Source: Okamejei kenojei
Lineage: Eukaryota
NCBI GenBank assembly: GCA_035221665.1
Contig: CM069146.1
Coordinates: 23,064,001 to 23,128,000 of the forward strand
Direction: 5' to 3'
Length of the DNA: 64,000 nt
The first letter of the stretch is position 1, and every line of letters starts with the position of its first letter. The notes under the pieces are model-generated. The model was not told the origin of the DNA, did not search any database, and saw only the letters and a list, made by a program, of their open reading frames with translations. Positions 6,950 to 57,238 of this stretch are shown here, piece by piece. Both the position numbers and the translations under genes were made by a program.

Positions 6950-7338
6950 TCGCTGAGGAGTGATCTATGCTACCGTTTGGATGTAAACTATATAAATCCC
7001 ACCTGAAAGAAAGGGGGCAACACTGCAGTGTATTTCTTAGACTATTATTGGTTGCATTTCATAAGGCAGGACTCTTAGCAAGGAAAAAAAACGCCGCCTG
7101 TCCGAGTAGGATGAGTTGGAACAACATAATATGCAATCACAGTTAAAAAAAAATCTCCACAGGGTGATAGAGTTTGTGGGGCGGTCGGAGGGGTTACGCT
7201 GCTCGGAAGTTTCATCTCGCCAAAGTAACTCGTGTGAACCCTTTGTACGTTTGGCTACTTTACTTGTTGGACGATCATGGATTTGAACCGAAGTCGTTAG
7301 TTTTGTAACCTCGGGAGTTATTGCAAAAGCAGGTAATG
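6950..7338 (+). promoter_or_regulatory. Candidate promoter / non-coding first exon
   Basis: Non-repetitive and relatively CpG-retaining. TATATAAA at 6989-6996, GGGGCGG near 7177 and a donor-like CAG/GTAATG at 7330-7338. Motif-level evidence only. Confidence 0.25.
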
Positions 7339-12292: not shown

Positions 12293-12744
12293 TAAGGCAG
12301 CAACTCTACTGCTGTGCCTCTGTGCTGCCCCAAACATTTGCTTGGTATGTTATACATAATAAATTATACAAATATTACATAAACCGATCACATTCATCGG
12401 TGGTGGTTTAATAAGGATTGAAACGTGCAGTGTTGAGGGGCGAGAAAGGATTGGCCAGATACAGTGTGATCCGAAAGAGGGATACATTGTTACATGTACT
12501 GAGTTACAGTGAAAAGCTTTTGTTTGCATGCTCTCCAGTCAAAGAAAAGACGATGTATGAACCGTGCAGATACAGGGTAATCGGTACAACATTTAGTGCA
12601 AAGATATATCATTTGTCCAATAAAGTCCAATTAATGTCCAACAAATGTCTCAAATTAGGTAGACGGGAGGTCAGGACGGCCCTCTAGCTGATGAGAGGAC
12701 TGTTCAGTTGCCTGATGAAGAAACTGTTCCTAAATCTGGAGGTA

Positions 12745-14354
12745 CAGTGGCTTGCAAAAGTATTCATACCCCTTGAACTTTTCCACATTTTGTCACGTTA
12801 CAACCACAAACGTAAATGTATTTTATTGGGATTTTATGTGATGGACCAACACAAAGTGGCGCATAATTGTGAAGTGGAAGGGAAATGATACATGGTTTTC
12901 AAATCTTTTTACAAATAAAAAACTGAAAAGTGTGGCGTGCAAAAGTATTCAGCCCCCTTTACTCTGATACCCCTAAATAAAATCCAGTGCAACCAATTGC
13001 CTTCAGAAGTCACCTAATTAGTAAATAAAGTCCACTTGTGTGTAATCTAATCTCAGTATAAATACAGCTGTTCTGTGAAGGCCTCAGAGGTTTGTTAGAG
13101 AACTTAAGTGAACAAACAGCATCATGAAGCCCGAGGAACACACCAGACAGGTCAGGGATAAAGTTGTGGAGAAGTTTAAAGCAGGGTTAGGATATAAAAA
13201 AAATATCCCAAGCTTTGAACATCTCATGGAGCACTATTCAATCCATCATCCGAAAATGGAAAGAGTATGGCACAACTGCAAACCTACCAAGACATGGCCG
13301 TCCACCTAAACTGACAGGCTTTTGAGAGCAGACAAGGAGAGCATTGATCAGAGAAGCGGCCAAGAGGCCCATGGTAACTCTGGAGGAGCTGCAGAGATCC
13401 ACAGCTCAGGTGGGAGAATCTGTCCACAGGACAACTATTAGTCGTGCACTCCACAAATCGGTCCTTTATGGAAGAGTGGCAAGAAGAAAGCCATAAGAGC
13501 TCCCGTTTGCAGTTTGCCACAAGCCATGTGGGCGACACAGCAAACATGTGGAGGAAGGTGCTCTGGTCTGATGAGACCAACATTGAAGTTTTTGGCCTAA
13601 ATGCAAAACACTATGTGTGGCGTAAAACTAACACTGCACATCACCCTGAACACACCATCCCCACTGTGAAACATGGTGGTGGCAGCATCATGCTGTGGGG
13701 ATGCTTTTCTTCAGCAGGGATAGTGAAGCTGGTCAGAGTTGATGGGAAGATGGATGGAGCCAAATACAGAGCAATCTTGGATGAAAACCTGTTAGAGTCT
13801 GCAAAAGACTTGAGACTGGGGCGGAGGCTCACCTTCCAGCAGGTCAACGACCCTAAACATACAGCCAGAGCTACAATGGAATGGTTCAGATCAAAGCATA
13901 TTCATGTGTTAGAATGGCCCAGTCAAAGTTCAGACCTCAATCCAATTGAGGATCTCTGGCAAGACTTGAAAATTGCTGTTCACAGACACGCTCCATCCAA
14001 TCTGACTGAGCTTGAGCTATTTTGCAAAGAAGAATGGGCAAAAATTTCAGTCTCTAGATCTGCAAAGCTGGTAGAGACATACCCCAAAGGACTTGCAGCT
14101 GTAATTGCAGCGAAAGGTGGTTCTACAAAGTATTGACTCAGGGGGCTGAATACGTTTGCACGCCACACTTTTCAGTTTTTTTATTTGTAATAAAATTTGG
14201 AATCCATGTATAATTTTCCTTCCGCTTCACAATTATGCACCACTTTGTGTTCGTCTATCACATAAAATCCCAATAAAATACATTTACGTTTGTGGTTGTA
14301 ACGTGACAAAACGTGGAAAAGTTCAAGGGGTATGAATACTTTTGCAAGCCACTG
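12745..14354 (+). mobile_element. Tc1/mariner DNA transposon, Passport-like IR/DR type, full length, inactive
   Basis: TA target duplication (12743-44, 14355-56). Long TIRs of about 213 bp (12745-12957, 14141-14354) begin CAGTGGCTTGCAAAAGTATTCA and contain an inner repeat of TGCAAAAGTATTCA. Transposase remnant lies between them. Confidence 0.95.
13124..14136 (+). pseudogene. Tc1 (DD34E) transposase pseudogene
   Basis: MKPEEHTRQVRDKVVEKFKAGLGYKK, frameshifts, then VLWSDET, TVKHGGGSIMLWGCFS, FQQVNDPKH, WPSQSSDLNPIE, AAKGGSTKY. The second catalytic D of QQDN reads V. Confidence 0.92.
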
Positions 14355-14669
14355 TATGCCTTTTCAAAAGGAAGAGGTTATTCTGCCAGAGAATGGTTTG
14401 AATTTGAAATGCATCACATCAATGGGTGGTGGAGGTAGGGATTCTTACAACATCTAAAAAAAAACTAGTCGGGCACTTGATCCGTTAGAAGGCAATGGGC
14501 CAAGTGCTGGAAAATTAGATCAAAATAAAATGATATTTGATATTGTGCCACAGGGCCTGTTTCTGTGCTGTATAACTAATTTTACTACTGAAAATCTGCA
14601 AGTTGGTGGCATAACTGAATAATGTGGGTAGGGGGATGAATGCAGGTGGAGAAAGGTTGTGGGTGACTC

Positions 14670-23340: not shown

Positions 23341-24917
23341 GAAAGGAACACAATTCTTTCAGGGCTTGAGATGGTAGATGAGGAGTTGATGTTTCCTCTG
23401 AATGGGGTTTCTAGAACCAATTTGTAGACGCAATAAGAGGTTGACAATTAGGATAGAGGTTGGAAGAAATGTCTTCGTCCATCAGATGACATCTTCAATT
23501 GTTCATCTAAGAGGGCCGTGGAGCCTCAGTCACTGACCAGATTCAAGGTGGAGTTTAGAGATACACTGCGGAAACAGGCCCACCGAGACTGCGCTGACCA
23601 GCGATCCCCGTGCAGTAACACTATCTACACACTAGGGACTATTTACAATTTACAGAAGTCAATTAACCTACTAACCTACAGAGAGTGAGAGGAAACCAAA
23701 GATCTTGAAAAAATCGACGCCCTCGCGGGGAGAACGAAAAACTCCGTACAGGCAGCACCCGTAGTCGGGATCGGACCCGGGTCTCTGTCGCTGCAAGTGC
23801 TGTAAGCCACTGTGCCACCAGGTAGAGATTTGACAATATTAAGGGAAACAAGGGTTGAGCAGTTTTGAACAAAATTGGTGGTGAGGTTAAAAACCTTTTG
23901 AATGATGGAGCAGTCAAGAGGGATTAAAAGCCTTCCCCTGCTTCTATTTCCCATGTTCGCTCATGTTTCTACCAACGGTTCTCAACCTTTCACAATTGAT
24001 GGTAATTGTAACCAGGATAGCTGATCAGCCAATTGGCATGCTGCATGATCTAAAACATAACATTGAGCTAATGAGCAGATCATCTGCCCATCGGTGCTAA
24101 ATCTCTCCCCTTGCACTTCTTTCCTCTTTTAAGATGCTTTTTAAAATTTGACTCTTTGACAAAGCTGTGCGTCGCCCTTTTTAGTCTCCCCATTTGGCTC
24201 ACGTCTGGTAGTTAAAAGCGCAGTAGACGGCTGTGTTGATTAATTGCTACTGTTGGAAGCTGAGTGGGACCTGTTATCCATAATCCTTAATGGTGTTGGG
24301 TAGTTCATCTGCCTCTTTCCCACTGTTCCCAATATCCCCAGCCCTTAGATGTAGTATGGTAATACTGCACAGGCCTGTGTTCAATATGTCCATCACTTAA
24401 ATACACCTACCTTAATCATGTTCACTTAGCTATCCGAACATCTCAAACCCAATTGAGGCCAGATGTGATGATGATGTGAACTGCACAGAAGTGGCCCTGG
24501 AGCTGTAGCTTTTACCTCGATTGAACATAAATATTAAGTTTATGATCTCTGGGAGTGTGTTTGGAGGAGGAATCATTGTCATGAGGTTTCCCTTTCTAAA
24601 AGTAATCTTCAACAATGGTTCATGCAGGTACATAGCAACATTTAAAAGACATTTGACCAGATACATGGATAGGAAAGGTTTAGAGGGATATGGGTCAAAT
24701 GCATGAAAATAGTAAGATTAAACGAGAACTTACCTTGTTCGAAGTTTGATCTTTATTTTATGATGAGTTACGATGAGGGATTACGTGAATCATCTCGTAA
24801 TGCTCAGCATACTTCATAGCAGTGGCGTGAAAACACAGAACCAATATCCGAAGTAAGATAGTAAGGCTCACACAAGACAAGATGATCGTTTAGATTATGA
24901 GGGTCGGGAGCGGAGGG

Positions 24918-25030
24918 CACGTAATCCCTCAATGTAACTCCTCACAAAATAAAGATCAAACTTCGAACAGGTAAGTTCTCATTTAATCTTACTATTTTAC
25001 TTTGGAGTCACATGAGTGACTACATGAAGA
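24918..25030. repeat. DIRS internal complementary region (ICR)
   Basis: 24918-24998 is the near reverse complement of 24706-24787. 24994-25030 is the near reverse complement of about 28644-28680. The two halves overlap at ATTTT. Confidence 0.92.
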
Positions 25031-31880: not shown

Positions 31881-33272
31881 CATACTTTTCAAAATCCATC
31901 CTTTAACTGTGAAGCGATCAAGACCTTTCCTAAGATAGTCTTGATACTTTGTTTTTCCCATCTCTTTGACTAAGCAATGGGTTGATTTAACTCTGGGGAG
32001 AACATTTCTGCTTCTGGCAACAAAGGTCTACAGGATTGTCAATCCTCAAGGAATGTCCTGGAAAAGTTCAGGAATTACTGAATACTATTGCCAGGCTCCC
32101 AGGAGAAAGATTATAGGGGCATTAAAACAATCTATGTGTTTTTTCAGCTGCTTTGAGCACATATTTATTTGTTATAATTTTTATCAGTGAAAGGGGAAAA
32201 ATGACAGTGCTGTGAAGTTAGGGTTAGAAGTGAAGGTTAGAGGTGGTGGTAAGCTTTGTTTATTTGCTCTTGGTAATTATTATTATGATAGCCTCTGTGA
32301 ACATTGTTGCCCATTGCAAATCGGTTTGTGTGCCCTTGGGGCCTGAGACGATCCTCCTGCAGTGACTCCGGTCCTGTCCTTCAAGAAGCTCTTGATAGCA
32401 TACTCTTGGGACAATGTAGCCTGCTGTCTCCTTCTGTGTCTGAGTGTGAAAGTATATCTCGATGGTTCTTTACTTTAGATTTTAGAGATACAGCGAGGAA
32501 ACAGGACAATTGGCCTACAGAGTCCGCACCGACCAGCGATCACCACGTACACCAGCACTATCCTACACACCAGGGACAATTTACAATTTTTACCAAATCT
32601 AATTAACCGACAAATATGTACGCATTTGGAGAATCCGGAAAAAAACCACGGGGTCTTGGGGCAAATGCTCAAGGTCTGTATGGACAAGAAGAACATATAA
32701 ACTCCATACAGACAACACCCATAGTCAGGATTGAACCTGGGTCTCTGGCACTGTAAGGCAGCAACTCTACCGTTGCGCAGCTGAGCTACACATATGTTCA
32801 ATGGTACTTTTTTGTCACATGTACCTAGGTAAAGAGAAATTCCTTTTTTTTTCATACAGTTCAGTAAAAATCTTACAACACCCAATCACAATCATACTTA
32901 AGTACAAGAGTGTAAGAATAGTAGATTACACTGTGGCAGTACACAAGACTCGCCACCTTTCAGTTATCATTCCTGTGAAGTTCTTTGGTACTGCTTACTA
33001 TATTAAAGAAGCTTTATAAATACTCTGTGGTCTGGGAACCATTTCCGAAGTTACCGTAAGGAGTGATTTTTGTGTACCAAAGTATTCGTCAACACCACAA
33101 ATCAGCCACGATCAGATCAGGTGCAAGAGGCTAGCGGGGGCTGTTTCTCTGTTCCCAATATCCATACTGCAGTTTGTGCTAAGGAAGTGTGTTTGCTAAG
33201 ATATTGGTTTGCCCTGTGGTTGGGAAGCCTCCATTAATGCCACTCTGTTCTCTACTTTTTCCAACACAGACA

Positions 33273-33348
33273 ATGGAAACATCTCTCTTGTTGCTTGGAA
33301 CCATCCAGGCTTTGTTCCTCACCAGCTCACTGGGACAAGCACAGAAAG
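33273..33348 (+). CDS. COL7A1: First coding exon: signal peptide [25 protein letters not shown]
   Basis: ACAATGG Kozak-like context, hydrophobic leader, donor AAAG/gtaacg. Its phase-1 end joins in frame with the next exon (G+CA = Ala). A pyrimidine tract and cag at 33267-33269 precede it. Confidence 0.8.
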
Positions 33349-36300
33349 GTAACGTGGGTTGCCACATCATTGGTAAAAGATTTGTGACGAGGATAAAGCC
33401 AGACTCGGTGGAGCAGTTTGACTATTGACATGGCTGGTAGATGGAGGGTTGTATTGTCAGTGGGAACAGATACTGAAGCTGAAAGCTTAGCCCAGGCTAA
33501 TCGAACATAGAACATGGAACAGTACAGCACACGAAGAGGCTCTTCAGCCCACAATGTTTGTGCTGAACATGATACCAAGTTAAACTGATCTCATCTGCCT
33601 ATTAATGATCCATATCACTCTATTCCTTGCATTTCCATGTGTCTATCTAAAAGCCTCCTAAATGCCACTGTTGTATCTGCCTCCACCACCACCTCTGTCA
33701 ATGCGTTTCAGGCTCCCACCACTCTCTGTGTAAAAAGACTTGCCCCACACATCTCCCTTAAACTTTGCCCCTCTCACCTTATAGCTATGTCCACTACTGC
33801 TGGATATTTCCACCCTGGGAAAAAAGGTTCTGACTGAATAACCCAATCTATGCCTCTCATAATTTTATATACTTCGATCAAGTCTCCCCTCAACCTCCAA
33901 TGATCCGACAAACAATCCACATTTACCTAACGTCTCCTTGCAGCTGAAATCCTCAAATTCAGGCAGCATTCTGGTAAATCTATACCCATGATGGGGCAAG
34001 TCTCCTGTAAAACTGCATCCAGTGTGCATGTCACAAAACATTCTGGATCTGTACATGTAATGCACAAGCACACACTTAGGCACAGACACAAACAGACGCA
34101 GTCACAGGTCTGTGGGAATGTGGGACAGTTGTAGGTGTTATCTGGAACGGAGAATCATAGCATTGTAACAGGCCCTTCATTGGTACATAGCCCTTGTCCA
34201 TGCCAACTTGGCCATTCTGGGCTAGTCCCATGTGCCTGCATTTGGCCCACTTCCCTCAAAACCCTTCCTATCCCTATATCAGTCCAAATGTCTTTTGAAA
34301 ATTGTAATTGTATCCACTTCTATAGCATCTGTTCTGTAGTCATGCCTTCTATTTTCTGTTGTGCTGAAGCAAAGCAAGAATTTCATTGTCCTATCAGGGA
34401 CACATGACAATAAACTCTCTTGAATCTTGAATCTTGAATTTCCCTCTGGTATTAAGACGTACAGCATGGAAACTGGGCCATTTGACCCACCACATCCATG
34501 CTGACCATTGGGCACTTAATCACATTAAAGGATTTAAAAATCTCAGTTAAGGCTCCAGCAACCTGTTCCTTTGCTTTCCACAGTAGTCAAGGATTAATCT
34601 TATCTGGCCCTGGGGAATTCATCCATCCTTAAGCATGCTGAGGCATCAACTACCTCCTTTTACTTTATTGAGACGTACCTTAGAAGTTACTCTTCCCCTT
34701 TACTAACAAACAACAAAGTCCATTTCCTCAGTGAGTGCTTTGGACCACTCTACCTTTTGGCTCCATATACACCTAAAAAAATCCGCCCCTTCTGAGCCTT
34801 TTATGCTAGCAATCCCAGTTAATCTTCAGGAAATTAAAATCTCTGTAATATAACCCTATTTTTATTGCATTTTTAATGTATCTGCCTACATATCAGTTCT
34901 ATCTCTAGTTTAAACTTTCCCCAACAGCACCAGCAAATCATCCGGAATGATATTGATCCAATTTTGGTTAAGAAGTAACATGTTCTGCTTGTACAGATTC
35001 CGTCTACTACTGAAAAGGTTCCAGAGATCCAGGAACCTAAATCCCATCTCCTTGCACCATACCTGAGTCACACATTCTTCTATTTCTATACCCACTAGCT
35101 CATGGCACTGGTAACAATCCAACAACCTTTGCATACCGCTCTTCATACAGCTCCCAAAACTATTCTTGCAGTACCTCATGCCTTCTCTTAGCTATGTTAT
35201 TGGCACCAATACACCCCACAACTGTTGGTTCTTCACTCTTCCCCTTCAGAATAACCTGTAGCCACTCTGAAACATCACTGACCCAAATGGCAGAAAGGTA
35301 ACTTACTAAACAGGCATCTTTATGGTGGCCATCGTGGTTCAAGAAGAAGTTCGAAGGGATTTACAGGAGTCGCTGCCTCAAAAAGATATCCAGCATCATC
35401 AGAGTGTGTCTTGCCACCCTTGCCACATCCTCATTTCCCCCCTGCTGTTGTGAAGAGGGTAGAGGAGCCTAAAAACTGTGACGTCCAGGGCCAGGAGCAG
35501 ATTCTTCCCTCCAACCATCAAGCTATTAAACACTACAACCTCCAAATACACTGCATACTACATAGTAACATAGAAAATAGGTGCAGGAGGAGGCCATTTG
35601 GCCCTTCGATCCAGCACCGTCATTCATTGTGATCATGGCTGATCATCCACAATCAGTAACCCGTGCCTGCCTTCTACCCATATTCCTTGATTCCACTAGC
35701 CCCAAGAGCTCTATCTAACTCACTTTTAAATTCATCCAGTGAATTGGCCTCCACTGCCTTCCATGGCAGAGAATTCCGCAAATTCACAACTCTCTGGGTG
35801 AAAAGGTTTTTTCTCATCGCAGTTTTAAATGGCCTCCCCTTTATTCTTAGACTGTGGTCCCTGTTTCTGGACTCCTCCAACACTGGGAACATTTTTCCTG
35901 CATTTAGCTTGTCCAGACCTTTTATAATTTTATTTGTTCTTAGATCCCCACTCATCCTTCTAAATTCAAGTGAATACAATATCTTGGGAGCATTGTTTTT
36001 GTTTTTGCACTAATATTGTCTGATAATATATATATATATATAGTTTGTATATCATGATGTTTTACAGAGTACTATGTTTACATATTTGTTGTGTTTCATT
36101 GTAAGAATTTCAAGTAAGAATTTCATTGTTCCGTTTTGGGACATATGACAATAAAACACTCTTGACTCTTAAAACGAACTGAAGTAAAAACCTGTCTGCA
36201 CTAGGGAAAACAAACACCAATCCAGTCTCTCGCTTTAATGCATGTCTCCTTGCATTTCAGCAATTTGCAAAAACGTCCACGCAGCTGATATTGTCTACCT

Positions 36301-39300
36301 CGTAGATGGCTCCTCAAGCATCGGGAGGGTCAAGTTTGAACAAGTCAAGAGCTTTATCGAAGCAACCATTCAACCTTTTGCAAATGTGATTGGTCCAAGT
36401 GCAGTAAGAATCGGGCTTATCCAGTACAGCGATGATCCCAGGTAAGGTGCTGCTCACTACTTGTAATGTCAGGGACAAAGGCTGGAAACCAAGTTGTCAG
36501 CAGCCAGCTGTGCATGAAGGGAACGCGGTCTGAGGATTTGGTGACACCGGAGTGTATTCCTTGGATGGGAATACATGCATAAATGGAATTAAATAATTTG
36601 CATGTGCAGTATAGTTTAGTGTCACGTGTACTGAGGTATGGTGAAAAGCTTTATTGTGGCATGCTATCCAGTCAGCGAAAAGACTATACATGATTACAAT
36701 TGAGCCATAAACAGTGTACAGATACAGGATAAAGAGAATAACGTTTAGTGCACGGTAAAGTGTGATTAAAGATAGTTCGAAGGTCTCCAATGAGGTATGT
36801 GGGAGCTCTAGATGGTGAGAGGATGGTTCAGTTGCCTGATAACAGCTGGGAAGAAGCTGTCTCTGAATCAGGTGGTATGCATTTTCAAGCTACCCTTGAC
36901 AATAAAACACTCTTGACTCTTAAAACGAACTGAAGTAAAAATCTGTCTGCACTAGGGAAAGCAAACACCAATCCAGTCTATTGACAAAGCCTGGATGGTT
37001 CCAAGCAACAAGAGAGATGTTTCCATTGTCTGTGTTGGAAAAAGTAGAGAACAGAGTGGCATTAATGGTGGCTTCCCAACCACAGGACAAACCACAGGAC
37101 AAACCAGTATCTTAGCGAACACACTTCCTTAGCACAAACTGCATGTTCACCACAGTATGGATATTTGGAACAGAGAAACAGCCCCCGCTAGCCTCTTGCA
37201 CCTGATCTGTAGTGGCTGATTTGTGGTGTTGACGAATACTTTGGTACACAAAAATCACTCCTTACGGTAACTTCGGAACTGGTTCCCAGACCACAGAGTA
37301 TTTATAAAGCTTCTTTAATATAGTAAGCAGTTCAATAGAACTTCACAGGAATGCTAACAGAAAGGTGGCGAGTCTTGTGTACTGCCACAGCATAATCTAC
37401 TATTCTTACACTCTTGTACTTAAGTATGATTGTGATTGGGTGTAGTAAGATTTTTACTGAACTGTATGAAAAAAAATGGAATTTCAATTTACCTAGGTAC
37501 ATGTGACCATTGATCATGCATGGACTTGATGGATTAAGAGGCCTCTTTCGCCTTAGCAAGTACATTAAGTGATCCGTGAAAGTTTTTGCTAGCGGTGGAC
37601 TATGAAACCACAAAAGAAACTAATGGGTTGGATGACTATAAGCTTGCTCAAATAACCTCTTAAAGGAGGAATAGAGAGGCTTAAGGAATGGTTGCCAGTC
37701 ACGGCCACCAATGATGGAACGATTAAGATTGGAGTTACTCAACAGGTCAGACCGGAAAAACACGAAGACGTGAAAATATCATAGAGCTGGAGTTTGGAAT
37801 GGGGTGGGATGACTTGGGAATCGAAAAGGAAATATCAAAATGATTAAGATGTTGCTTAATTGGCAGTCAGACTTGGCCAGCAAGCGGATTGGTGACTGGT
37901 GACTGGTGGACAAAGGAAGCCGATTACATCAGGAATCAAGAGTATTTTATTTCATTTTAAAAAGGACTCAAATTGTTAGAGTAACTCAGCAGGTCAGGCA
38001 GCATGCAGTACAAGGAAAGGCACAATGTGCCTGACCCACTGAGTTACTCCGATGTTTTTTGTCTTTTTTTGTAAACCAGCATCCACAGTTCCTTGTGTTT
38101 GTATTTTACTTAATATTTCTACTCCTTCACTTTTCAGATTCTTTGTGCATGCTATTCCCTGAAAGGAAAACATTTTATATCCGTTATTCCTGTTTCATCA
38201 CGAGGATATCCCAATGACCTTCAAAGTCAGTTCATCCCGTTTAAAATATAGCCAGTGTTAGAAGTTCAGCTATCATCAGCCAACATGGATAGTTTGCTCC
38301 CAGAAGTGGCAGACAAATTAATTTGGTAAAGGGCCCGTCTCACTTTCCCGACCTAATTCACGACCTCTGCCGAGTTTGCCTTTGACTCGTACCCACAGCA
38401 TGGTTATCACAAGGTCGTAGGTAGGTTGTGATGCTAGTCGTAGGTACTCGGGGCATCAAGTAGGTCGGGGCGTTTTTTCAACATGATGAAAAATGTCCAC
38501 GAGTAAAAAAGGTCATGAATTCTGTCGTGAAAGTGGGACAGGCCCTTAAGTTGGATGATCAGCCATGATCATATTGAATGGCGGTGCAGGCTCGAAGGGC
38601 CAAATGCCCTACTCCTGCACCCATTTTCTATGATTCTATGATTCTAAAGGATTTTAGTTAAAACACAGAGAGAACAGCCCTTTCACTGCTCCATGTTTTA
38701 AAATTTGCCTCAAAGTGAAACATGGTTTAATAATTACCTGACATTGCAGATGTTTTTGCAATTCAGATATTTGCAAATCTCTCACCCACTTGTTACTGCA
38801 TCAATCCATTCCACATATCTGGTCCAACACCGGTCAAAGTTGCCATAATGATCTTTGCATCTGTCCAGACACTGCTTTGGCTGTCTGTATCAGGGACATT
38901 CACACATGAGTGTACAAGTTAGAATGCAAGCCAATTTAACTAAATGAAATGGCAGTTCACACACTCAGTCCCACTGAGATCTGAAAAAGCTGAGTCAGCA
39001 TAAATAAGAAACCAGCCGCTCTCAGCTTTTGGGCTTTGGGGGATTGCACAGTTACTGAATGATAATAAATGATTTCCTTTTGAAACTGCGATATTGTTCA
39101 GGCTAGTATGAGCCTGAATGTGTCATTTTAACCCCCAAGGATAGTTTGACTAGGAAGTTATAATATTTACTGCCGAGAAATTGGGTTTCGTTTAGTTTAG
39201 ATGTGTGGAAAGGAACTGCAGATGCTGGTTTATACCAAAGATAGACACAAAATGCTGGAGGAACTCAGAGTACTCCAGCATTTTTGTGTTTATCTTTAGA

Positions 39301-45300: not shown

Positions 45301-48300
45301 AACCAGCCTATTTAATTAGCAACACAGGACTGCAGATGTTGGAATCCCAGCAGATTCCTTTTACCCAGAGTAGGGGAATCGAGAACCAGGGGACATAGGT
45401 TTAAGGTGAAGGGGGGAAAGATTTAGTAGTAAACCGAGGGGCAAGTTTTTTACATAAAGGGTGAGAAGTATATGGTGCAAGTTGCCGGAGGAGGTAGTTG
45501 GGGCAGGTACTATCAAACATTTAAGAAACATTTAGACAGGTACTTGCCCACACCAATCAACATGCCCCTTCTGCACCAGTCTCTCCTGCCCGCGATTGGT
45601 CCATATCCCTCTAAACCGATAGCAATCGCACGCAGGAGAGTCTGGTGCAGAAGGGGCATGTTGATTGGTGTGTGCAAATTGGGCTGAAGTGCCTATTTCC
45701 ATGCTGTATGACTCTATGACAGTGACTCTTTGCTGAAAGCTGAACCTGCTGTTTATGAAGGAAATTGGGGACCAGGTGCATTTAAAGGGAGTGTTGGTCT
45801 GATGCTGGACTATCAGGATTTCCATCCAATGGGATACCGGATTATTGGAATTTTACCAGAATATGGGAGACTATCGGATTGTCATTAAAATCCATTAAAA
45901 TCCATGTGGTTCAATAAGAGGGAAGTCTTGATCACACCCAGCTGACCTTGTGTGCACTAGACACATGCAGCATTTAGAGTCAGTTGCAAAAATCAGGGTG
46001 TTTTGAGATGTGCAGTGAATAGTCCCCATCCTGTAATTGAACAACTAAATGAAAAAAATGATACTCAATTTTTACACAACCAAGTCCAAAATAAGGGCAA
46101 TGAGGTAAATCAATAAATGTTTCCCTGAAGTGAAAGATCATTAAATTTAGTTTAAGTTTAAAGACACAGCATGGAAACAGGCTTTTTGGCCCATCAAGTC
46201 CACACCAATCATCGATCACCCGTTCACACTGGTTTTATGTTACCCACTTTTGCATCCACTCTCTACACATTAGGAGCAATTTTACATAGACCAAATAACC
46301 TACAAACCCCACATGTCTTTGGAAATTTTGGAGGAAATGGAGCACCCGGAAGAGGGTGGTGAATCTGTGGAATTCTTTGCCCCAGAAGGCTGTGGAGGCA
46401 AGGTCAATGGATATATTTAAGGCAGAGATAGATAGATTCTTGATTAGTACAGGTGTCGGAGGTTATGGGGAGAAGGCAGAATGGGGTTATGAGGGAGAGA
46501 TAGATCAGCCATGATTGAATGTCGGGGTAGACTTGATGGGCTGAATGGCCTAATTCTTTTCCTATCACACATGATTTTATGAAACTATGTGGTCACGGGG
46601 TAGAACTTGCAACTCCACACGCAGACAGCACCCGAGGTCAGGAACGAACCTGGGTTTTTGGTGCTGTGAGGTGGCATTCCACCATAAATCTTATTGTAGA
46701 TGTTGCGCAGGTTCCCCAGCTGATCTTCCAAGTAGAACCTTGAAAGTGATCTTCCAAGGCATCTGTCACATGTAACCTGTAATCATCGCCACAGTTTGAT
46801 GTCTACACTTGGCGATATGTGCTTTGAAAGAGCCTCTCTGGTTTTAGGCCCCACATTTGAGGAGGGATGCATGGTGTTGGATAGGGTCTGGAGGAGGTTT
46901 ACGAGACTGATTCCGGAGATGATTGGGTTATGACAGCTCTGGACCTGTATTCGCTGGAATTTAGAAGGATGACGAGGGAACCTCACCTAAACATACCGAA
47001 TAGTGAAAGGCATGGTTAGAGTAGATGTTTCCACTAGTGGAAGAGTCTAGGACCAGACGGCACAGCCTCAGAATAAAACGATGTACCTTTAGAAAGGAGA
47101 TGAGGAATTTCTTTAGTCAGAGGGTGGTGAATCAGTGGAATTCATTGCCACAGTGGGCTGTGGAGGCTGTCATTGGGTACGTTTAAAGTGGAGATTGACA
47201 GATGCATGATTAGTAAGGATGTCAAGGGTTATGGAGAGAAAGCAGGAGAATAGGGTTGAGAGGGAAAGATAGATCAGCCTTGATTGAATGGCAGAATAGA
47301 TTTGATGGGCCAAATGTCCTAATTCTGCTTCCTATGACTTATGAACTTATGATCTTTAACCATACGTCTCTTTCAGAGCCCCTGCCAGGATCATTTAACT
47401 TCCGTGTGGTCACAGCTGGGCCCTTCACACTGCGTCTGGCGTGGAAACCACCGACCTTCGCTCTGCAAGGATACCGACTGACCTTCAAGCAGAGAGGTTT
47501 GAGAAAGCTTGTTATTTTGCATATCCAGCCGCGCACAATGCATGCTTATTTTTCCTTTGCTTCCTTTGGGGAGGAAGAAGGCAGAATTGCAGCTGAACAT
47601 TCAGACTTACAGCAACATTTGTGTTAGAGAGAAGAAAGTGTTGTAGAAATGCTCTGCTTCTTCTTCAAGTGTTTGCACTAAAGTTGAGTGGAGCATGACT
47701 TCACTCTGCCATCAATGCGCATCCTTCATTCCTCTTGGCTGGAAGGCTAAAGGATTTCAGGGTTGAGGAGTTGTACTGTGATGTTGTACTGAGAACTTAT
47801 CTTATTACCCAATAAAGTGTATTGGGCTTACAGAGACTGCAATTCTGGGGATGTTCTGGGGTTAGGACAGAGAGTGCCTTTTCTAGGGTATGGGGCAGAG
47901 CGCTTATTGAGGAGATGGGACAGAGAGTGTTTATTATGGGGTGCAGGACAAGGAGTTATGCTGGGGAATGGACAGAGAGTGCCTATACTGGGATACACGG
48001 CATGGAGTGCTTATTCTGGGATATCGGACGGAGTGCTTTTATTTTGGGGTACGGAATAAGGAGTGTTTATTCCAGGATTTGAGTCAAGAATGTTTAAATA
48101 GAGTTTCTTACCTGGGATACAGGGCTGGGAGTATTTTTACTGGGATAATTCCATGTGAAGTTCCTGAGCGTGAGGAGATGCTACCAACACCACATGCGGA
48201 CGAGGGAAAGTTGATTACACCCCAACATGACCCCATCACTGAACCCTCTCCCTCTGGTATCTACTCTCATTCTGCTTGGTTTACTTTATGCCACTGCTCG

Positions 48301-51300
48301 TTTTTTTTCCTCCAGGGGGTAAATGAGACGACAGATTGATTTGTATCATCTTTCACTCACCGCCCATGCTACCGACAGAGCGAGCCTGTTCGCTGCTTTT
48401 AGTGCCGTAGCTTCAGGCTATTGGTTCTGAACCATCAGAGGGAAGATAGGAAGGGCTTGTGACCGTAATGTCTTCTTTTGTGCTCTGTGGAATGATGGCC
48501 TGGAGCTTCTGCCTGTCCCGAGAGGCTGGCGCTTTGTTTGGTGTGCGGGTGGAGGCTGGGTGTGCCTCACACTGACGTGAGTCAAGGGAGATGTGAGGTG
48601 AATAAAACAACAGACAATACAACATCTGGCACTGCATGCACCTGTGCCAGGTGTGCCAGTGCAGGAGAGAGGTATATACTTCAAATGAACGCCTGTACTG
48701 CCTTTTATGTTCCAAGTCTTACACAGTTGCAGATCAACTCGAGGTGATGTTGTAATGTTCTCTTGTGAAACAAGAACCCACTGTGACAAGTCTGAGCAGC
48801 GTGAAAATAGTCTGTTGCTCCCTACACTAAATATGCGATTTATTGATGTACGTTTGTTGGCTTCAACTTAATCAAATATCAAAAGGGGAGTTCAGTGTAG
48901 AAACAGTACTGTATAACAGCTGTGCATAAACGATTGAATTCCTACTTCAGGATGTTGTTGCTCAGTTTAAACAGAGGGCACTGATATATAAATATAAAGT
49001 GGTTGTAGAAAGCATTGGCTTAACAGTTACAATACAGCATTGCAGGTGTGACAGAGTCTTAAAGAGACACAGCACAGAGTCTGTGCCAACCACCAAACCT
49101 CCATTTTTTTCACTGAACCTACAGTGATCCCTTTATAATCTTCCCATATCCCCAACGTTTAGCCCTCCCCTCAGACTCTGTCATTCACTGACACACCAAG
49201 GCTAAATAACCTGCCAACCATGACCACGGGGGGAAAATGGAAAATGGAGGAGGACTGGCCAAATTTTGTGCCTTCCACCACAGTGATGAATGCTGTGGTG
49301 GATGTTTGTGTTGAATTTTTGTTGTTTTTGTGTGTTCTTTTTTCATTGTGCCGCTGCTGGCAAATTCATTTCGCTTGCACTTTATGTGCAAGTGACGAAT
49401 AAAACTGATATTAATTAATATTGAACCTGCATGTCGCAGGGATGTGAGAGGAAACCGGACCACACGGAAGAAACGTATGCAGTCATAGGGAGAACGTACA
49501 AACTCCACACAGGGTCAGCATTGAACCCGGGTTGCTGGAGTGGTGTGGCAACAGGTCTACTAGCTGTGCCACCGTGCTGCCCCTGTATTGCTGAATGGCT
49601 ATTTTAGTCTTGGGTCCCTGATGCAAACATTCCTCTTGAATAAATGCCAAGACCACTTGGGAGAGTTCAACATCTGGTACCACCATTTCCCATTTCTGTT
49701 TGCATGTGAAGGCTATGGCCTGCTGCCCATCAACAGTAAGAGCGTTGAGTAGTTTAATTTAGAGATACAGCATGGAAACAGGCCCTCCTACCCACTGAGA
49801 CAACGCCAAACCTGCGATTCCCGCACACAAAACACTATCCTGCACACACCATGGATAATTTTACAATTTTACCAAGCCAATTAGCCTACAAACCTGTACG
49901 TCTTTGGAGTGTGGGAGGAAACCAGAGCCCCCGGAGAAAACACACGCAGGTCGCGGGGTGTACGTACAAAAGTCTGTACAGGCAGCAACCGTGGTCAGGA
50001 TTGAACCCGGGTCTCTGGTGCCCTAAGGCAGCAAATCTACCTCTGCGCCATATAAAGGTTGCCTCGGTGTGCCACCGAATGTGCCAGGCGTACGGTGTGC
50101 AACCGTATAGAGGTTACAGCTGTTCAAGATGTACTTGGAGTATTGTATTCAGTTTATGACTTGTTCACATCTGCACCTGACATTGGAGAATTATTTCAGT
50201 TATGAATTTTGATCGCTTTTAGTTCAGCTCAAAGCTTGTTGCCTCCATCTAGTTGCAAGTTCAGATGCGATCAACACAAGTAATCACCAGTTCTGATGGA
50301 AATATAATTAACTTCCCACTTTTTATGTGCATTTTCTCTTGAAATGTTTTATGGCGGAGAGACATAAAATTCAGACGATAAAGAGGGAGGTGTTTCCTTT
50401 GTATAGTTGTCATTTAATTACCTTTGAAGAACGGTTCTAGAGATCGAAGTGCCGAGGGAATAGAAAAGTTAATGGGGCTCAGTGTACACCAGCAATAACA
50501 TCAGTGAAACATAGACTAGTCACAAGTTGCTGGATTGCCTTCTGCTCTGACCTTGAAAAATCATTGCTGCCCATTCACAAGTTAGGACCATGATGGAATA
50601 CTCCCTTAGACTTTAGAGATACAGCACAGAAACCCACCGACAATTTACAATTTTTACTGAACCTTATTAACCTACAAACCTACATGTCTTTGGAGTAATG
50701 GAGACATAGAGTGATACAGCGTGGAAACAACTTTGTCCCAACATGCCCACAACGGCCAACATCATCCAGTCACATTAGTCCCACCTTCTCGCTTTTCACC
50801 CGTATCCCTCCAAACCTGTCCTATCCATGTACCTGTCTAATTGTTTCTTAAATGTTGAGATAGTCCCTTCCTCAACAACCTCCTCTGGCAACTAGCTCCA
50901 GACTTCCGCCACCATTTGTGTGAAAAAGGTACCCCTCAGATTCCTATTAAATCTATTTCCCTTCACCTATGTCCTCTTGTCCTCGATTCACCTATTCTGG
51001 GTAAGAGACTATGCATCTACCCGATCTATTCCTTATTCTTTTATACACCTCTGTAAGATCACCCTTCATCCTCCTGCACTCCAAGGAATAGAGTCCCAGT
51101 CTAAACCTCCCTATGGATCGGACCCTCTAGTCCCGGCAAAATCCTTGTAAATTTTTTCTGTACCCTTTCCAGCTTGCAACGTTTTTTCCATAACATGGTG
51201 CCCAGAACTGAATACAATACTCTAAATGCGGTCTTGCCAACGTTTTACACAACTGCAACATGACCTCCCAACTCCTATACTCAATACTCTGACTGATGAA

Positions 51301-54300
51301 GTCCAATGTCCTAAATGCCTTTTTGACACCCTATCTACTAGCAACTCCTCCTTCAAGGAACCATGTACCTGTACTCCTAGATCCTCTGCTCTACAGCACT
51401 CCTCGAAGCCCTACCATTCAATGTGTAGGTCCTGCCCATGTTAAACTTCCCAAAATGCAACACCTCACATTTCTCTGTATTAAATTCCATCAACCATTCC
51501 TCAGCCCACTTAGTGTGGGAGGAAACTGGAGCTCCAGGAGAAAATACATGCGGTTACTGGGATAATGTAGCATGCAATAAAAAGGTCTTTGCCACAACTC
51601 CGCACACATGACAATAAACAAAACGAAACGAAAAGAACGTTAAAAAAACGTACAGCCAGCATCCGGGGTCAGGATCGAATTCGGGTCTCTGGCGCTGGAA
51701 GGCAGTAACTGTGTCACCCTCTGGGCTTTCAAACAGTGATATTAATTTGCTTCCTGGTGTTCAGATGCTTTCCCTGAGCTCGGAAGATGAATCAATTCAG
51801 GATTAAGAGTATTGTGTTGTTGGAAGCCAATCATAGACTTGAGGTGAGGTTTATTGTGGTTCACAGAAACCTGTAATTTAGTGGGACAGATTTCCAAATT
51901 AACAAAGGAAACAAACCGTAAACATGAATGTAAGTTTGCCTGCAATTAAAGCTTTATTGTGGATTAGCAGTTGTGAAACATAAGGGGGTAGAAATGTTTC
52001 TTTGATCGTAAAAGTTGTGCATATCATTATTGTACTCCCTTCTGTTACTTGATTCCTTAGAAGATAATTATGGCTTCGAAGGAACCAAATTTTGGAACTG
52101 GGTTAAAATGTGCGTCCACTAATATATTTGCATGTTCAGTGTGAATGATTAAGGAACGTGTTAAAGGATATAACCTTATGCGCCAGAGACTCGGGTTCGA
52201 TCCTCACTGCGGGTGCAGTCTGTACAAAGTTTGCATGTTCTCCCTGTGACTGTGTGGGTTTCCTCCTTCACTCCAAAGATGTGCAGGTTTGTAGGTTAAT
52301 TGGCTTCTGTAACTTGTAAATTGTCCCTAGTGTGGAGGATAGTTCTATGGTATGGGCGATCGCTGGTCAGCGAGGATTTGGTGGGCCAAAGGGCCTGTTT
52401 CCACGCTGTATCTCTAAACTAAACAACAATTTTTATCTCTGATTATTCTCTGATGAGATGTGGGCGTCTTTGCCAAGGCCATGAGATGCTGCCCATCCCT
52501 AACCACCCGTGAGAAACCATCTTGATGCCCTCATTTTGCTATTGGGGAGGGAGTTCCAGGATTTGGAGATAGTGAAATGAAGGAATGGCGATATATTAGT
52601 TTGTCTGCATCTTAGAGGGGAATCTACAACTGGTTGTGTACTCAAACATGCCAAGTGCTTCTTTGGTAAAGAGAAATTCCATGTTCATTGAGACAAGAGT
52701 GTGCAAGGATTTTGAATAGACTATTTTCCATAACTTTTCTTTCATTTCCTCCACCGATCTCCTCATTTTAGTTTAGTTTTGCTTAGAGATAGAGCGCAGA
52801 AACAGGCCCTTCAGCCCACCGGGTCCACTCTGACCAGGAATCCCCGTACACTAACACTATCCTACACACTAGGGATAATTTACAGTTTTTACAGAATCCA
52901 ATTAACCTACAAACCTGTAGTGTGGGAGGATACCGGAGCACCAGGAGAAAAGCCACGTGGCCACAGGGAGAAACATAGAAACATAGAAACATAGAAATTA
53001 GGTGCAGGAGCAGGCCATTTGGCCCTTCGAGCCTGCACCGCCATTCAATATGATCATGGCTGATCATCCAACTCAGTATCCTGTACCTGCCTTCTCTCCA
53101 TACCCCCTGATCCCTTCAGCCACAAGGGCCACATCCAACTCCCTCTTAAATATGGCCAACAAACTATCTTCTGTGGCAGAGAATTCCACAGATTTACCAC
53201 TCTCTGTGTGAAAAACGATTTTCTCATCTCGGTCCTAAAAGACTTCCCCCTTATCCTTAAACTGTGACCCCTTGTCCTGGACTTCCCCAACATCGGCAAC
53301 AATATGGACAGGAAAGTACAAACTTCATACAGACAGCCCCTTTACTCAAGATCGAACCTGGGTCTGGCCCTGTAAGGCAGCAGCTCCTCCGCTGCTCCAC
53401 CATGCCACCCCTCCTGGGGAAAATTTCAATGAGACTTTTTGGGAGTGATCGCTCCCTGGCATGCACTGCTATGGATGTGGTGGAAGTCTACATGATGGTA
53501 ACATTTAAGAGGCTTTTAGACAAGATCGTAAACAGCAAGGGATGGACGGCTATGGATAAAGTGCAGGTAGATGGCATTAAATTAGTTCAACTTGGCAGCA
53601 TGACGGGCACAGACATCGAGGGCTGAATGGGCCTTTCCTGCATTATGGGCTGCATTGTTGCTGATCTACACGATGTATCTCAATAGATCGAATGGTTTCC
53701 TATGTCATGAAATTATAGGAGACTAGACACTGGCATATACCATTTTCATTTGCACATGTTGCACGTGCTAACAGTAATTATTGTTGGTTTCATAAATATA
53801 ACTCACCAAAAATGGATATATTTTCATTGTGATTGTTATATAAACATTTAAATCAGTTGAACAACAGCTTTAAGCTGGTGTTCGTTTTTGTTGTCAGTGC
53901 AGAGGCAACAGTACCTAATAAATACAGCAAGACCTCTGTTAATGCAGGAGGATTTGATTTCAATACTAGCGTAGAGATTTTTTGGAAGCGGATTTGAATG
54001 GCAATGTCTTCCTCCATTAGTATAACATTTAAAAGATATTTGTATAGGTATATGGACAGGAAAGGTTTAAAGAGATATGGGCCAAATATGGGCAGGTGGG
54101 ACTAGTGTAGTTGGGGAGCCTTGCTCATCATGGGAAGTTGGGCCGAAGGGCCTGTTTCTGTGCTGTATGACCATGACTACCATAGAGTAGATGAAACTGC
54201 TTCTGGAACATTATCCCCATGTTCCCCCCTCATGAAGGGTGGACTTGCAATAGAGGGGCTGCAGTGAAGGTTCATTGGATTGGATTCTCAGGTGACAGGC

Positions 54301-57193
54301 ATATTGTTGAGGAGAGGAGAAGCAGATGACTTGTTCACTTTAGTAGAGTGGAAGGCGATTGTATTGAAATGGACTAAATTCTTAAGGGCCGGTCAGCAAA
54401 GGAGATTACCTACAGCTATCTCGTCTACCTACAACAACATGGCGACCCCACTACCACTGCACAACGAGTTCAAAAGTATTGATTTTCTCCATGCCGCCCA
54501 ATTTTTGCTCGCAGAAATTTTTTTAACAAGTTGAAAATTTTTCCGCGACCAAACTGAGGCTGCAAGTATGAACCACTATGCGGGAACTCCTCTCGACCAT
54601 GAAGGAGACTTACCAGAGACCACCTACGACCATGTGTCGACCATGCTGCAAGCTTGTGGCGAGCGCAGACTCTCCTAAACTTGCCAATAAGGTCACCATA
54701 GTGGGACAGACCCTTTATGGGACTTGACAGGATAAATGAAAAGTAAATGCCTTTCTCTGGTTTGGGAGTTCAGAACCAGGAGTTGCTGTCTCACAATAAC
54801 AAGTCAAAATCATTCAGGACAGGAATGAGATGAAATTTATTTCCATGTACAATAATTAACGTTTGGAGTTCTCTTCCCAAGAGGGCTGCTGAGGCTCAGT
54901 GGCTGGGTATATTCAAGGTGGAGAGACAAAGAACTGCAAATGCTGGTTGATACACAAAATGACACAAAGTGCTGGCGTAACTCAGCAGGTCAGGCGTGGA
55001 TTTTATATGGATAGGTCATATCCAGTTGAGAGACCCTTCTTTAGATTGCTAAAAAGGTCTGTTTGGCCCAGTCTGAAGAGAAAGATCCTGACCTACCATC
55101 CACCTCTTTGGAGACCTTTGAACTATTTTTAATCAGACTTTACTGGACTTTATCTTGCATAAACATTATTCCATTTATCCTCTATCTGCACACTGCGGAC
55201 GGCTTGATTGTATTCATGTATAGTCTTGTCACTGGCTGGATAGTACTCAACACAAAGCTTTTCTCCATATCTCAATACACGTGCCTATAATAATAAATTA
55301 AACTAGACAAAAATAGTTTTTCAAGGAAATACAGCGACCAACGTACAAGGAAAGCACCCACCAACTGGCAAAAGATCTAATTATCTGTTCACGTGATGTT
55401 GATCAATGGGTTAGAAAAAAAACTTAATTGGCTGTAGTATGGTTTTGTACCTTGTGAAAGGTGTCACATGTGTGGAAGTCTATGTTTAGGACGAATGCTA
55501 GCCCTCGCTTGCTACCCCGTAATAATCCTCATCACGATGTTATCATTAGATCTAAGGATTTACTTCAACAGTAAACAAACTGCCAGTGGAACCCTTGGGG
55601 TGGAAAAGAATTGTCAATGTTCAGCCCTAATGCAGTGCCTCCACCCAAAACATTAGCGATTCCTTTCCCCACAGAAGCTGGCCTACCTGCTGAGTTCCTC
55701 CAGCATGTTGCCTTTTGCTCCAGATTCATAAGTCTGCATTGGGATTTACTTCAAAAGAAAAGCTTGTTTGTATGTATCGGTGATGATGCTGTTAAATTTG
55801 GTGGAGAGGGAATCAGATTCTAGAATGGTGCTGACACAGGAAACTGCAGATGCCGAGAATCTTGAGCAAAACACCAAGTGCTGGTGCAATTCAACAGTTC
55901 TGGACCATTACTCTAGAGGCATGCGTTCAAATCTGGGGAATTTTAATTCAGTGATTATATTTTTTAAACTCTGGCACATCATGTAAAAGCTAGTCTCATG
56001 GATAGTAATCATGTAACTACCAGACTATCATCAAAACCTAAAATGAAAATCAATGTTAGCAATTTGTTACACAAAGCAACTTACTTTCCCACTGCTATGC
56101 CATTTCACCCGACATAGAAGTTCCCATTTTCCACACATTGCCTTCTTCCCCCATAATCTCTACTGCCGAGGATAACTTGTTTTCTCCCTTTCTCTGTTCT
56201 CTGTTCCAATGAAAGGTCTTCAACCGTAAATGCTAACTGCTTCTCTTAACTGCTGCTCCTTCCACAGAAGCTGCCTGACCTGCTGAGTTTTTCCAGCATG
56301 TTATGTTCTCTTGTGTTGTCAAAGCCCTCATGGTTCGCTAATGCTCCCGTAGAAAAGAAATCTGCTGTCCTTCCCCTATTTGTCTGCACGTGACTCCAGA
56401 CCCACTATTTTGGTTGGCACTTAACCGCAGTGGGGCAACGATGTACAAGCACCGATGTGCTGGTGTCCACGGTGATGTTCACATCTTTTGAGCAAATCAA
56501 AGAAAGTGCTCCTGCTCTGATGTTCTTGTGTAGCCCTCAGGCATTTGCTTTTCAATTAGATTTTATTTCAAAGGGGACAACAGGTGTGGTGATAAAAGCA
56601 AAGATTTGGATCCTCTGTTTAAAACTTGAGAAGGTAAACCTCGTGCAAGACATTGAATCTTTGCTGATGGAGGATGGCTGAATATTTGCCGGCAAGCTTG
56701 CTGAGTTTAGTCTGGGAGAAATTAATGATTTTTTAAGGTAGAGGTTAGGTCGGTAAGGTGGATAAAAGACTGGGCAAAGCTCTCAAAATTTAGAATAAAG
56801 GGAACAGCAGATGGTGGTTTAATAACCAAAAGATCAGTTCACAGTGCAGCGTAGGCATGTTGGCAGATTAATGGGGCAAAGTTCTCTTTTGCAGTAAAGC
56901 CAATCAGGAGGAACATGGCTTTAATTTGCATCTGATCTGCGCTTTATCTGATCCGCCCAGCAACATTGAAAGATGGCATTGTGTGCAAAATTACACAAGT
57001 GTTCCTTTCCGAGCACTTAAGTTCATTACGTTGACTGTGGTAACTCAAGGCTGGGTTTGCAGGCAGTGATTCAACATCAACAGCTGCCATTTATAAAGCA
57101 TTGAACATTCATCTCCCAAGGCACTTCCCGGCAACGTTGGCCAACAACCCTCAATTCCAAAGAAGACTTAGGATTTAAGAAGCATCTTGCAGT

Positions 57194-57238
<45 letters not shown>

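What the first reader, a model, noticed from the sequence alone, without database searches (positions are those of the whole stretch)
32814..37507. Intronic inverted duplicate that could base-pair over the collagen VII splice acceptor and start codon
Seen: 36984-37507, in the intron after the first vWA exon, is an inverted copy of 32814-33315. An 85-nt block (33231-33315 vs 36984-37068) is perfectly complementary and covers the pyrimidine tract, the AG, the ATG and the first 43 coding nt. The rest of the copy has substitutions and indels. Much of the copied sequence is not a recognisable repeat. Inference: if transcription starts upstream, the pre-mRNA could form a stem of about 500 bp with a 3.7-kb loop. 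That could mask the signal-peptide exon, attract ADAR editing or favour back-splicing of the looped vWA exon. It may equally be a neutral rearrangement scar.
Basis: partly seen in the sequence, partly recalled or inferred. Interest (0 to 1): 0.7.

Follow-up and report, generated by a model that had tools for sequence, protein, structure and literature searches.

The report
Mirrored start exon in collagen intron
A cartilaginous-fish collagen VII gene carries a backwards copy of its own start exon region inside a later intron, shared with one sister species, and it is likely a harmless DNA-copying accident because the main mRNA still splices normally.

Summary
The inverted copy is real: 32814-33315 mirrored at 36984-37507, 18 substitutions and 3 indels. 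The same junction stands in a contig of a second species (B), so mis-assembly is out; three further species show no junction. An RNA contig puts a non-coding first exon at ..7332, so both arms are transcribed. That contig includes the start exon, uses the 'masked' acceptor and shows no A-to-G change. The 85-nt perfect block is within chance (P 0.31-0.41) and is broken in B. Arm divergence (3.6%) matches neutral A-B divergence (3.1%), with only 2 of 18 mismatches G-U wobbles. New: two B-specific substitutions sit in both arms, which needs arm-to-arm gene conversion and mimics compensatory base pairing. Verdict: likely a neutral template-switch scar with patchy conversion; minor skipping, editing or circles are untested. 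The scan noted a similar ~520-bp inverted duplication elsewhere in this genome (e1-9862240).

The parts
7300..7332 (+). 3' end of the upstream non-coding first exon (about 7084-7332 if the 246 loose letters are one exon); donor GT at 7333; intron 1 is 25.9 kb
   Evidence: RNA contig loose end matches 7300-7329 exactly, 1 match in the window; all 3 ATGs in 7080-7332 meet a stop inside the exon
32814..33315 (+). Left arm = source sequence (end of intron 1 plus first 46 nt of the start exon); weak similarity extends to 32794
32796..32961 (.). Dispersed repeat inside the arm; the arm's distal end falls at the family's shared end (retroposon-tail-like; that label is my recalled reading)
33231..33315 (+). 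85-nt block perfectly complementary to 36984-37068 in this species; at least 2 mismatches in species B
33243..33269 (+). Pyrimidine tract (18 of 20) and AG acceptor, used in mRNA
33270..33348 (+). Start exon of a COL7A1-like gene: ATG 33273 in strong context (A at -3, G at +4), hydrophobic signal-peptide-like 25 aa
36146..36228 (+). Source of the direct copy, just upstream of the vWA exon acceptor
36261..36441 (+). First vWA exon, inside the 3.7-kb loop
36897..36979 (+). Direct 83-nt templated copy (2 differences)
36980..36983 (.). 4-nt linker; 36981-36987 repeats the 7-mer at 36896-36902, the first junction
36984..37507 (-). Right arm = inverted copy (possibly to 37517)
   Evidence: contigs
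37083..37106 (.). 12-nt tandem duplication private to the right arm; also in B, there apparently with a third copy

Best explanation
The feature is a compound insertion (83-nt direct copy, 4-nt linker, ~520-nt inverted copy) in the intron after the first vWA exon of a COL7A1-like gene, likely made once by serial template switching during replication or break repair and likely neutral since. Inferred path: synthesis stalled at 36896, jumped 750 bp back and copied 36146-36228, re-used 7 nt of its own first junction, switched to the opposite strand at 33315, copied leftwards to the end of a dispersed repeat, and rejoined near 37518, replacing at least 200 nt of older sequence. Shown: it predates the split of species A and B (same junction), and at least one patch has since been transferred between the arms (gene conversion inferred). 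The pre-mRNA can in principle pair, but the acceptor emerges 3.7 kb of transcription before its partner and is likely committed first; the dominant mRNA keeps the exon. Any dsRNA, editing or circle would be a by-product.
For: Two local donors within 4.1 kb, one direct and one inverted, joined by a short linker that repeats the first junction's 7-mer: the pattern described for MMBIR (PMC2621351, abstract). Real and old: an X2 contig matches the right arm with 0 differences over 438 nt and another bridges the distal junction; a B contig runs from 33315 into letters identical to the reverse complement of 36954-36983. No such loose end in D or E; C and D contigs carry 241 and 206 unlike letters upstream of 37520. 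Neutral clock: arms 18/502 = 3.6% (CI 2.1-5.6), A-B flanks 90/2892 = 3.1%, A-D 128/3052 = 4.2%; arms vs A-B Fisher P=0.58. No RNA-stem signature: 2 of 18 mismatches are G-U; block within chance and broken at 33255 and 33266 in B. Conversion: 33242 and 33248 differ from A in both B contigs (20.3 of 20.3 depth, 2 contigs) while both A arms, D and E agree; chance parallel change P about 1e-4 to 7e-4. mRNA: one 7528-nt contig, depth 76, spliced on both sides, 0 other letters in 33267-33348.
Against: The duplex is long and stable and overlaps a used acceptor; long-range pairings up to 30 kb do steer splicing (PMC7797038, abstract). The RNA evidence is a single contig from one run of unknown tissue; contigs drop minor isoforms and partial editing. 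Substitutions shared by both arms are formally also what compensatory selection gives. Persisting through one speciation is compatible with weak selection. Absence in C, D, E rests on one run each (D 74% read) and contigs cannot prove absence; B's left-arm contig is also unbroken at 33315. B's distal junction differs from A's (30 unlike letters) and the letters there were not shown, so the rejoining step is not resolved. Junction microhomologies are short and partly inferred.
Confidence: 0.75

Rival explanations
1. The arms pair in the nascent RNA often enough to hide the acceptor and start exon in part of the transcripts. Skipping would remove the ATG and signal peptide, giving an unproductive mRNA, so the stem would tune collagen VII output by elongation rate, tissue or temperature.
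For: Both arms are transcribed; duplex -885 kcal/mol against -126 and -119 for the arms folded alone; all 3 ATGs of the next exon are out of frame, so skipping would be a clean off-switch; kept in two species; shared changes at 33242 and 33248 preserve pairing in B. Precedents: ATE1 30-kb pairing (PMC7797038, abstract), inverted Alu loop-out (PMC13019027, passages).
Against: Dominant mRNA includes the exon; block not conserved in B; arm divergence neutral-like and wobble-poor; acceptor looks strong whereas loop-out favours weak acceptors (PMC13019027 passages); conserved complementary regions are depleted over active splice sites (PMC8052449 passages).
Confidence: 0.13
2. The stem forms after acceptor commitment and matters through its products: ADAR editing of the arms or a back-spliced circle of 36261-36441.
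For: Long imperfect duplex with mixed mismatches; cross-intron edited Alu pairs exist, mean distance 1993 bp in 61 cases (PMC2533698 passages).
Against: No A-to-G in the exonic part of the mRNA contig. The loop (3669 nt) is far longer than the 682-bp mean for edited Alus in that paper. All 10 exons examined are flanked by 3-28 inverted pairs, and a closer 89-nt pair flanks this exon, so the geometry is common. No function is suggested by any result.
Confidence: 0.07
3. The right arm is a retroposed copy of an antisense transcript that ran through the exon and ended at the repeat's tail, 5'-truncated at 33315, with the 83-nt piece added during repair.
For: The arm's distal end coincides with the repeat family's shared end in 8 of 8 other copies examined (matches start 32796-32806).
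Against: Insertion 3.7 kb from the source in a 2.76-Gb genome with no other copy; no poly(A) or target-site duplication seen; older sequence appears replaced.
Confidence: 0.04
4. Assembly artefact.
For: No long reads were laid.
Against: Arms differ at 21 events; distal junction bridged in X2, proximal junction in another species' contig.
Confidence: 0.01

Closest known systems
FoSTeS/MMBIR-type complex templated insertions (PMC2621351, abstract seen; PMC8421209 and PMC7954356, search listing only)
   Same: Several nearby templates, one inverted, short junction homologies, accompanying loss of sequence
   Different: Small (about 610 nt), germline-fixed or shared across two species, and one template is a live splice acceptor with the start codon
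Arm-to-arm gene conversion in inverted repeats (Y palindromes; nematode repeats in PMC1803023, abstract and Discussion read)
   Same: Lineage-specific substitutions present in both arms
   Different: Arms only 0.5 kb with a 3.7-kb spacer; conversion is patchy and arm divergence is not held below species divergence, unlike the near-perfect nematode cases
Inverted Alu pairs causing loop-out exon skipping, editing and back-splicing (PMC13019027, PMC2533698; passages)
   Same: Long intronic inverted pair around an exon in one pre-mRNA
   Different: Arms are mostly unique host DNA, the pair overlaps the acceptor and ATG rather than flanking the exon, and no skipping or editing was seen
Conserved long-range RNA pairings that regulate splicing, e.g. 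ATE1 (PMC7797038 abstract; PMC8052449 passages)
   Same: Kilobase-range complementarity touching a splice site
   Different: Those are short and deeply conserved; this one is long, young, absent from three close relatives' contigs and drifting

Membership tests
Template-switch (MMBIR/FoSTeS) insertion | Discontinuous copies of nearby templates, including an inverted one | tested here: met
   83-nt direct and ~520-nt inverted copies, donors 0.75 and 3.7 kb away
Template-switch (MMBIR/FoSTeS) insertion | 2-5 bp microhomology or templated linker at junctions | tested here: inconclusive
   7-mer shared by junctions 1 and 2 (7 copies in the 64-kb window); pre-insertion letters at junctions 1 and 3 not available
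Template-switch (MMBIR/FoSTeS) insertion | Single origin, non-recurrent junctions | tested here: met
   Same 30 junction letters in species B
Inverted repeat under gene conversion | Lineage-specific changes shared by both arms | tested here: met
   33242 and 33248 in both B contigs; 33088 and 33096 in both A arms are suggestive only, since B's single contig there may hide one arm
Inverted repeat under gene conversion | Arm divergence lower than orthologue divergence | tested here: not met
   3.6% vs 3.1%, P=0.58
Regulatory long-range pre-mRNA pairing | Both arms in one transcript | tested here: met
Regulatory long-range pre-mRNA pairing | Pairing conserved over the splice site across species | tested here: not met
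   B mismatches at 33255 and 33266; no junction seen in C, D, E
Regulatory long-range pre-mRNA pairing | Alternative splicing of the affected exon | tested here: inconclusive
   1 of 1 RNA contig laid includes the exon; minor isoforms are invisible in contigs
Regulatory long-range pre-mRNA pairing | Splicing changes on disruption and is rescued by compensatory change | not testable with these tools
   needs a minigene
ADAR-edited inverted pair | A-to-G clusters in the arms | tested here: inconclusive
   0 other letters in the 46 exonic nt; intronic parts not covered by RNA
Retroposed copy | Poly(A) or tail, target-site duplication, distant insertion | tested here: not met
   local insertion, no poly(A) or duplication at the junctions

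The most novel reading that the evidence does not exclude
A single replication accident gave a constitutive, essential skin-collagen gene its own cis antisense copy of the acceptor and start codon, creating in two sister species a new kinetic off-switch (skip the start exon, lose the protein) whose pairing is renewed by DNA-level arm-to-arm conversion rather than by compensatory selection: a splicing-regulatory RNA structure caught at birth.
Probability: 0.1. Interest if true: 0.7.

Novelty: new member of a known kind. Interest (0 to 1): 0.3.

Why it matters
As a neutral scar it is a tidy natural test: a 500-bp, 96%-matched antisense copy placed 3.7 kb behind a used acceptor is tolerated, with carrier and non-carrier sister species as ready controls for how far co-transcriptional commitment protects a splice site. 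It is also a caution: gene conversion between arms produces apparent compensatory base changes without RNA-level selection. Conversion could also carry mutations from the free arm into the live acceptor and start codon, and a crossover between arms would invert two coding exon parts (inference). If regulated skipping were found, it would show how long-range splicing structures originate.

Tried and rejected
85-nt block as a selected element: rejected (P 0.31 and 0.41; broken in B). Arm as duplicated promoter giving an antisense promoter: a TATA-like 8-mer lies at 33015, but the transcript starts about 26 kb upstream and D differs at 33017; dropped. An upstream in-frame ATG, suggested by shark proteins with 1-3 extra N-terminal residues: none reads through in 7080-7332. 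Truncation of the repeat ending near 36890 by the event: sibling copies stop matching each other at the same point, so not shown. Pre-existing inverted repeat copy at the distal junction as primer: 37511-37900 matched none of 8 repeat loci; ancestral letters unseen, so open. at 85% likeness was swamped by repeats (494 variant rows, 7102 joints and 13378 loose ends not shown), so only tables 1-3 and the longest pieces were used. No listed run holder was on record as RNA; X15 was flagged 'probably DNA' but its contig is spliced. Of 24 listed runs, 6 were laid (X2, X6, X9, X13, X14, X15); X16, X17 and other possible RNA runs were not. D's short contigs at 33111-33169 remain unexplained. Literature: 'col7a1 + skate' gave 5 papers, none on this locus by title or abstract start; a 5-of-6-term search for an intronic antisense copy over a start codon gave 0. 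No supplements were read. Earlier-findings look-ups near this place and by words gave nothing.

Full report
Observation. The window's best self-match is 32814-33315 against 37507-36984: 92% over 525 columns with 24 gap columns (pieces). The alignment shows 17 substitutions inside those limits, an 18th at 33204 that I re-read from the gap placement, and indels of 1, 11 and 12 nt; the longest perfect run is 85 nt, 33231-33315. Bases 32965-33348 occur only at these two places in the genome. The first 150-165 nt are a dispersed repeat. The 85-nt run is what random placement of the differences gives in 31% or 41% of simulations.

Gene. The 59-aa exon 36263-36439 finds 5 proteins among 9 candidates; 4 are named collagen alpha-1(VII)-like from cartilaginous fishes, 76-83% identical. 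Two of them map exon by exon from 36260 to 63214. Exon 33270-33348 encodes a hydrophobic 25-residue leader with a strong start context and an 18-of-20 pyrimidine tract. One RNA contig of organism A (X15; 7528 nt, depth 76) lies on 33267-33348 with no other letter, continues into 36261 and is preceded by 246 letters whose last 30 match 7300-7329; the donor follows at 7333. So the ATG exon is exon 2 behind a non-coding exon and a 25.9-kb intron, its acceptor is used, and both arms lie in the pre-mRNA.

Anatomy. The arm is not alone. 36897-36979 is a direct copy of 36146-36228 (81 of 83 nt), joined to the arm by 4 nt. Positions 36981-36987 repeat the 7-mer at the first junction, 36896-36902. In C and D, contigs that match from 37520 onward carry 241 and 206 further letters unlike the window on the upstream side, so older sequence was probably replaced. 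Two local templates, opposite orientations, a short templated-looking linker and a deletion are the pattern of serial template switching (PMC2621351, abstract). The order of steps is my inference.

Reality and age. In run X2 (organism A, 23 differences in 3170 flanking nt from the window) one contig equals 36984-37421 letter for letter and another spans 37453-37997 across the distal junction. In organism B a 158-nt contig leaves the arm at 33315 into letters identical to the reverse complement of 36954-36983 and carries the right arm's 12-nt tandem unit. D and E show no such loose end, and C has background depth (1.3 against about 8-10) on 36991-37207; contigs cannot prove absence, and each species is one run. 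Flank divergence from the window is 3.1% for B, 4.2% for D and 5.0% for C (longest listed contigs only). The arms differ by 3.6% (CI 2.1-5.6), not different from A-B (P=0.58): what an unconstrained copy made shortly before the A-B split should show.

Arms across species. At 33242 and 33248 both B contigs, the one running on into the exon and the one with the junction, carry the same letters, which differ from both A arms, D and E. With one origin, this needs a transfer between arms in B or in A whichever way it is polarised; parallel mutation has P about 1e-4 to 7e-4. 33212 is also shared by both B arms and A's right arm. At 33088 and 33096 both A arms differ from B, D and E, but B has one contig there (depth 17.5 against about 9.7), which may hide an arm, so this is suggestive only. 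B's right arm differs from its left at 33255 and 33266, inside A's perfect block, and has 2 further unlisted differences. A's left arm alone is derived at 33042, 33204 and by the 11-nt deletion at 33167. Clustered shared changes with otherwise neutral divergence fit short gene-conversion tracts (compare PMC1803023, Discussion). Selection for an RNA stem should favour G-U wobbles, but only 2 of 18 mismatches are wobbles.

RNA consequences. The predicted duplex is -885 kcal/mol, the most stable of the 25 shortest-loop pairs scored among 53 inverted pairs of 80 nt or more in the transcribed part; each of 10 exons examined is flanked by 3-28 such pairs. The partner of the acceptor appears 3715-3760 nt after it, which from general knowledge is a minute or more of transcription, time for exon definition; the exon's donor is outside the stem. 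Skipping would remove the ATG, and all 3 ATGs of the next exon are out of frame, so strong masking would amount to loss of collagen VII; its survival in two species argues the effect is small (inference). Edited Alu pairs average 682 bp apart, 1993 bp across introns (PMC2533698, passages); loop-out skipping favours weak acceptors (PMC13019027, passages); conserved complementary regions are depleted over active splice sites (PMC8052449, passages). Against my reading, a 30-kb pairing does act in ATE1 (PMC7797038, abstract), and one contig cannot exclude a minor skipped isoform, partial editing or a circle.

Verdict. A real, lineage-restricted compound templated insertion with shown arm-to-arm sequence transfer and no shown effect on the mRNA. 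It is a new member of a known kind. I found no paper on this locus. Interest 0.3; a regulated-skipping reading keeps about 0.1 probability.

Noticed in passing
window 32814-33315 vs 36984-37507: Only 5 of 18 arm differences are transitions, against 11 of 17 (E) and 13 of 22 (D) between species in the same region (Fisher P 0.04 and 0.06). Error-prone copying or mismatch-repair bias during conversion could explain it; unexplained.
   Followed up: partly
window 7084-7332: The COL7A1-like gene has a non-coding first exon 26 kb upstream of the start exon, with three upstream ATGs that all stop inside the exon, and a TATA-like motif near 6990.
   Followed up: partly
window 12743-12958 / 14140-14356: 217-nt inverted pair, 94% identical, 1182 nt apart in intron 1: looks like the ends of a DNA transposon.
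   Followed up: no
window 24706-24787 / 24918-24998: 82-nt inverted pair, 93%, 131 nt apart, next to a multi-kb element-like stretch reaching about 28680.
   Followed up: no
window 33111-33169, run X13: Four short extra contigs (34-67 nt, depth 40-85) in organism D over part of the arm; alleles or another copy.
   Followed up: no
window 37083-37106: The right arm's 12-nt tandem unit appears to have a third copy in organism B (loose ends at 33205 and 33221).
   Followed up: partly
window 47499-59835: 12-kb gap between matched exons (query residues 366/367); no shark-protein exon is missing there by tblastn.
   Followed up: no
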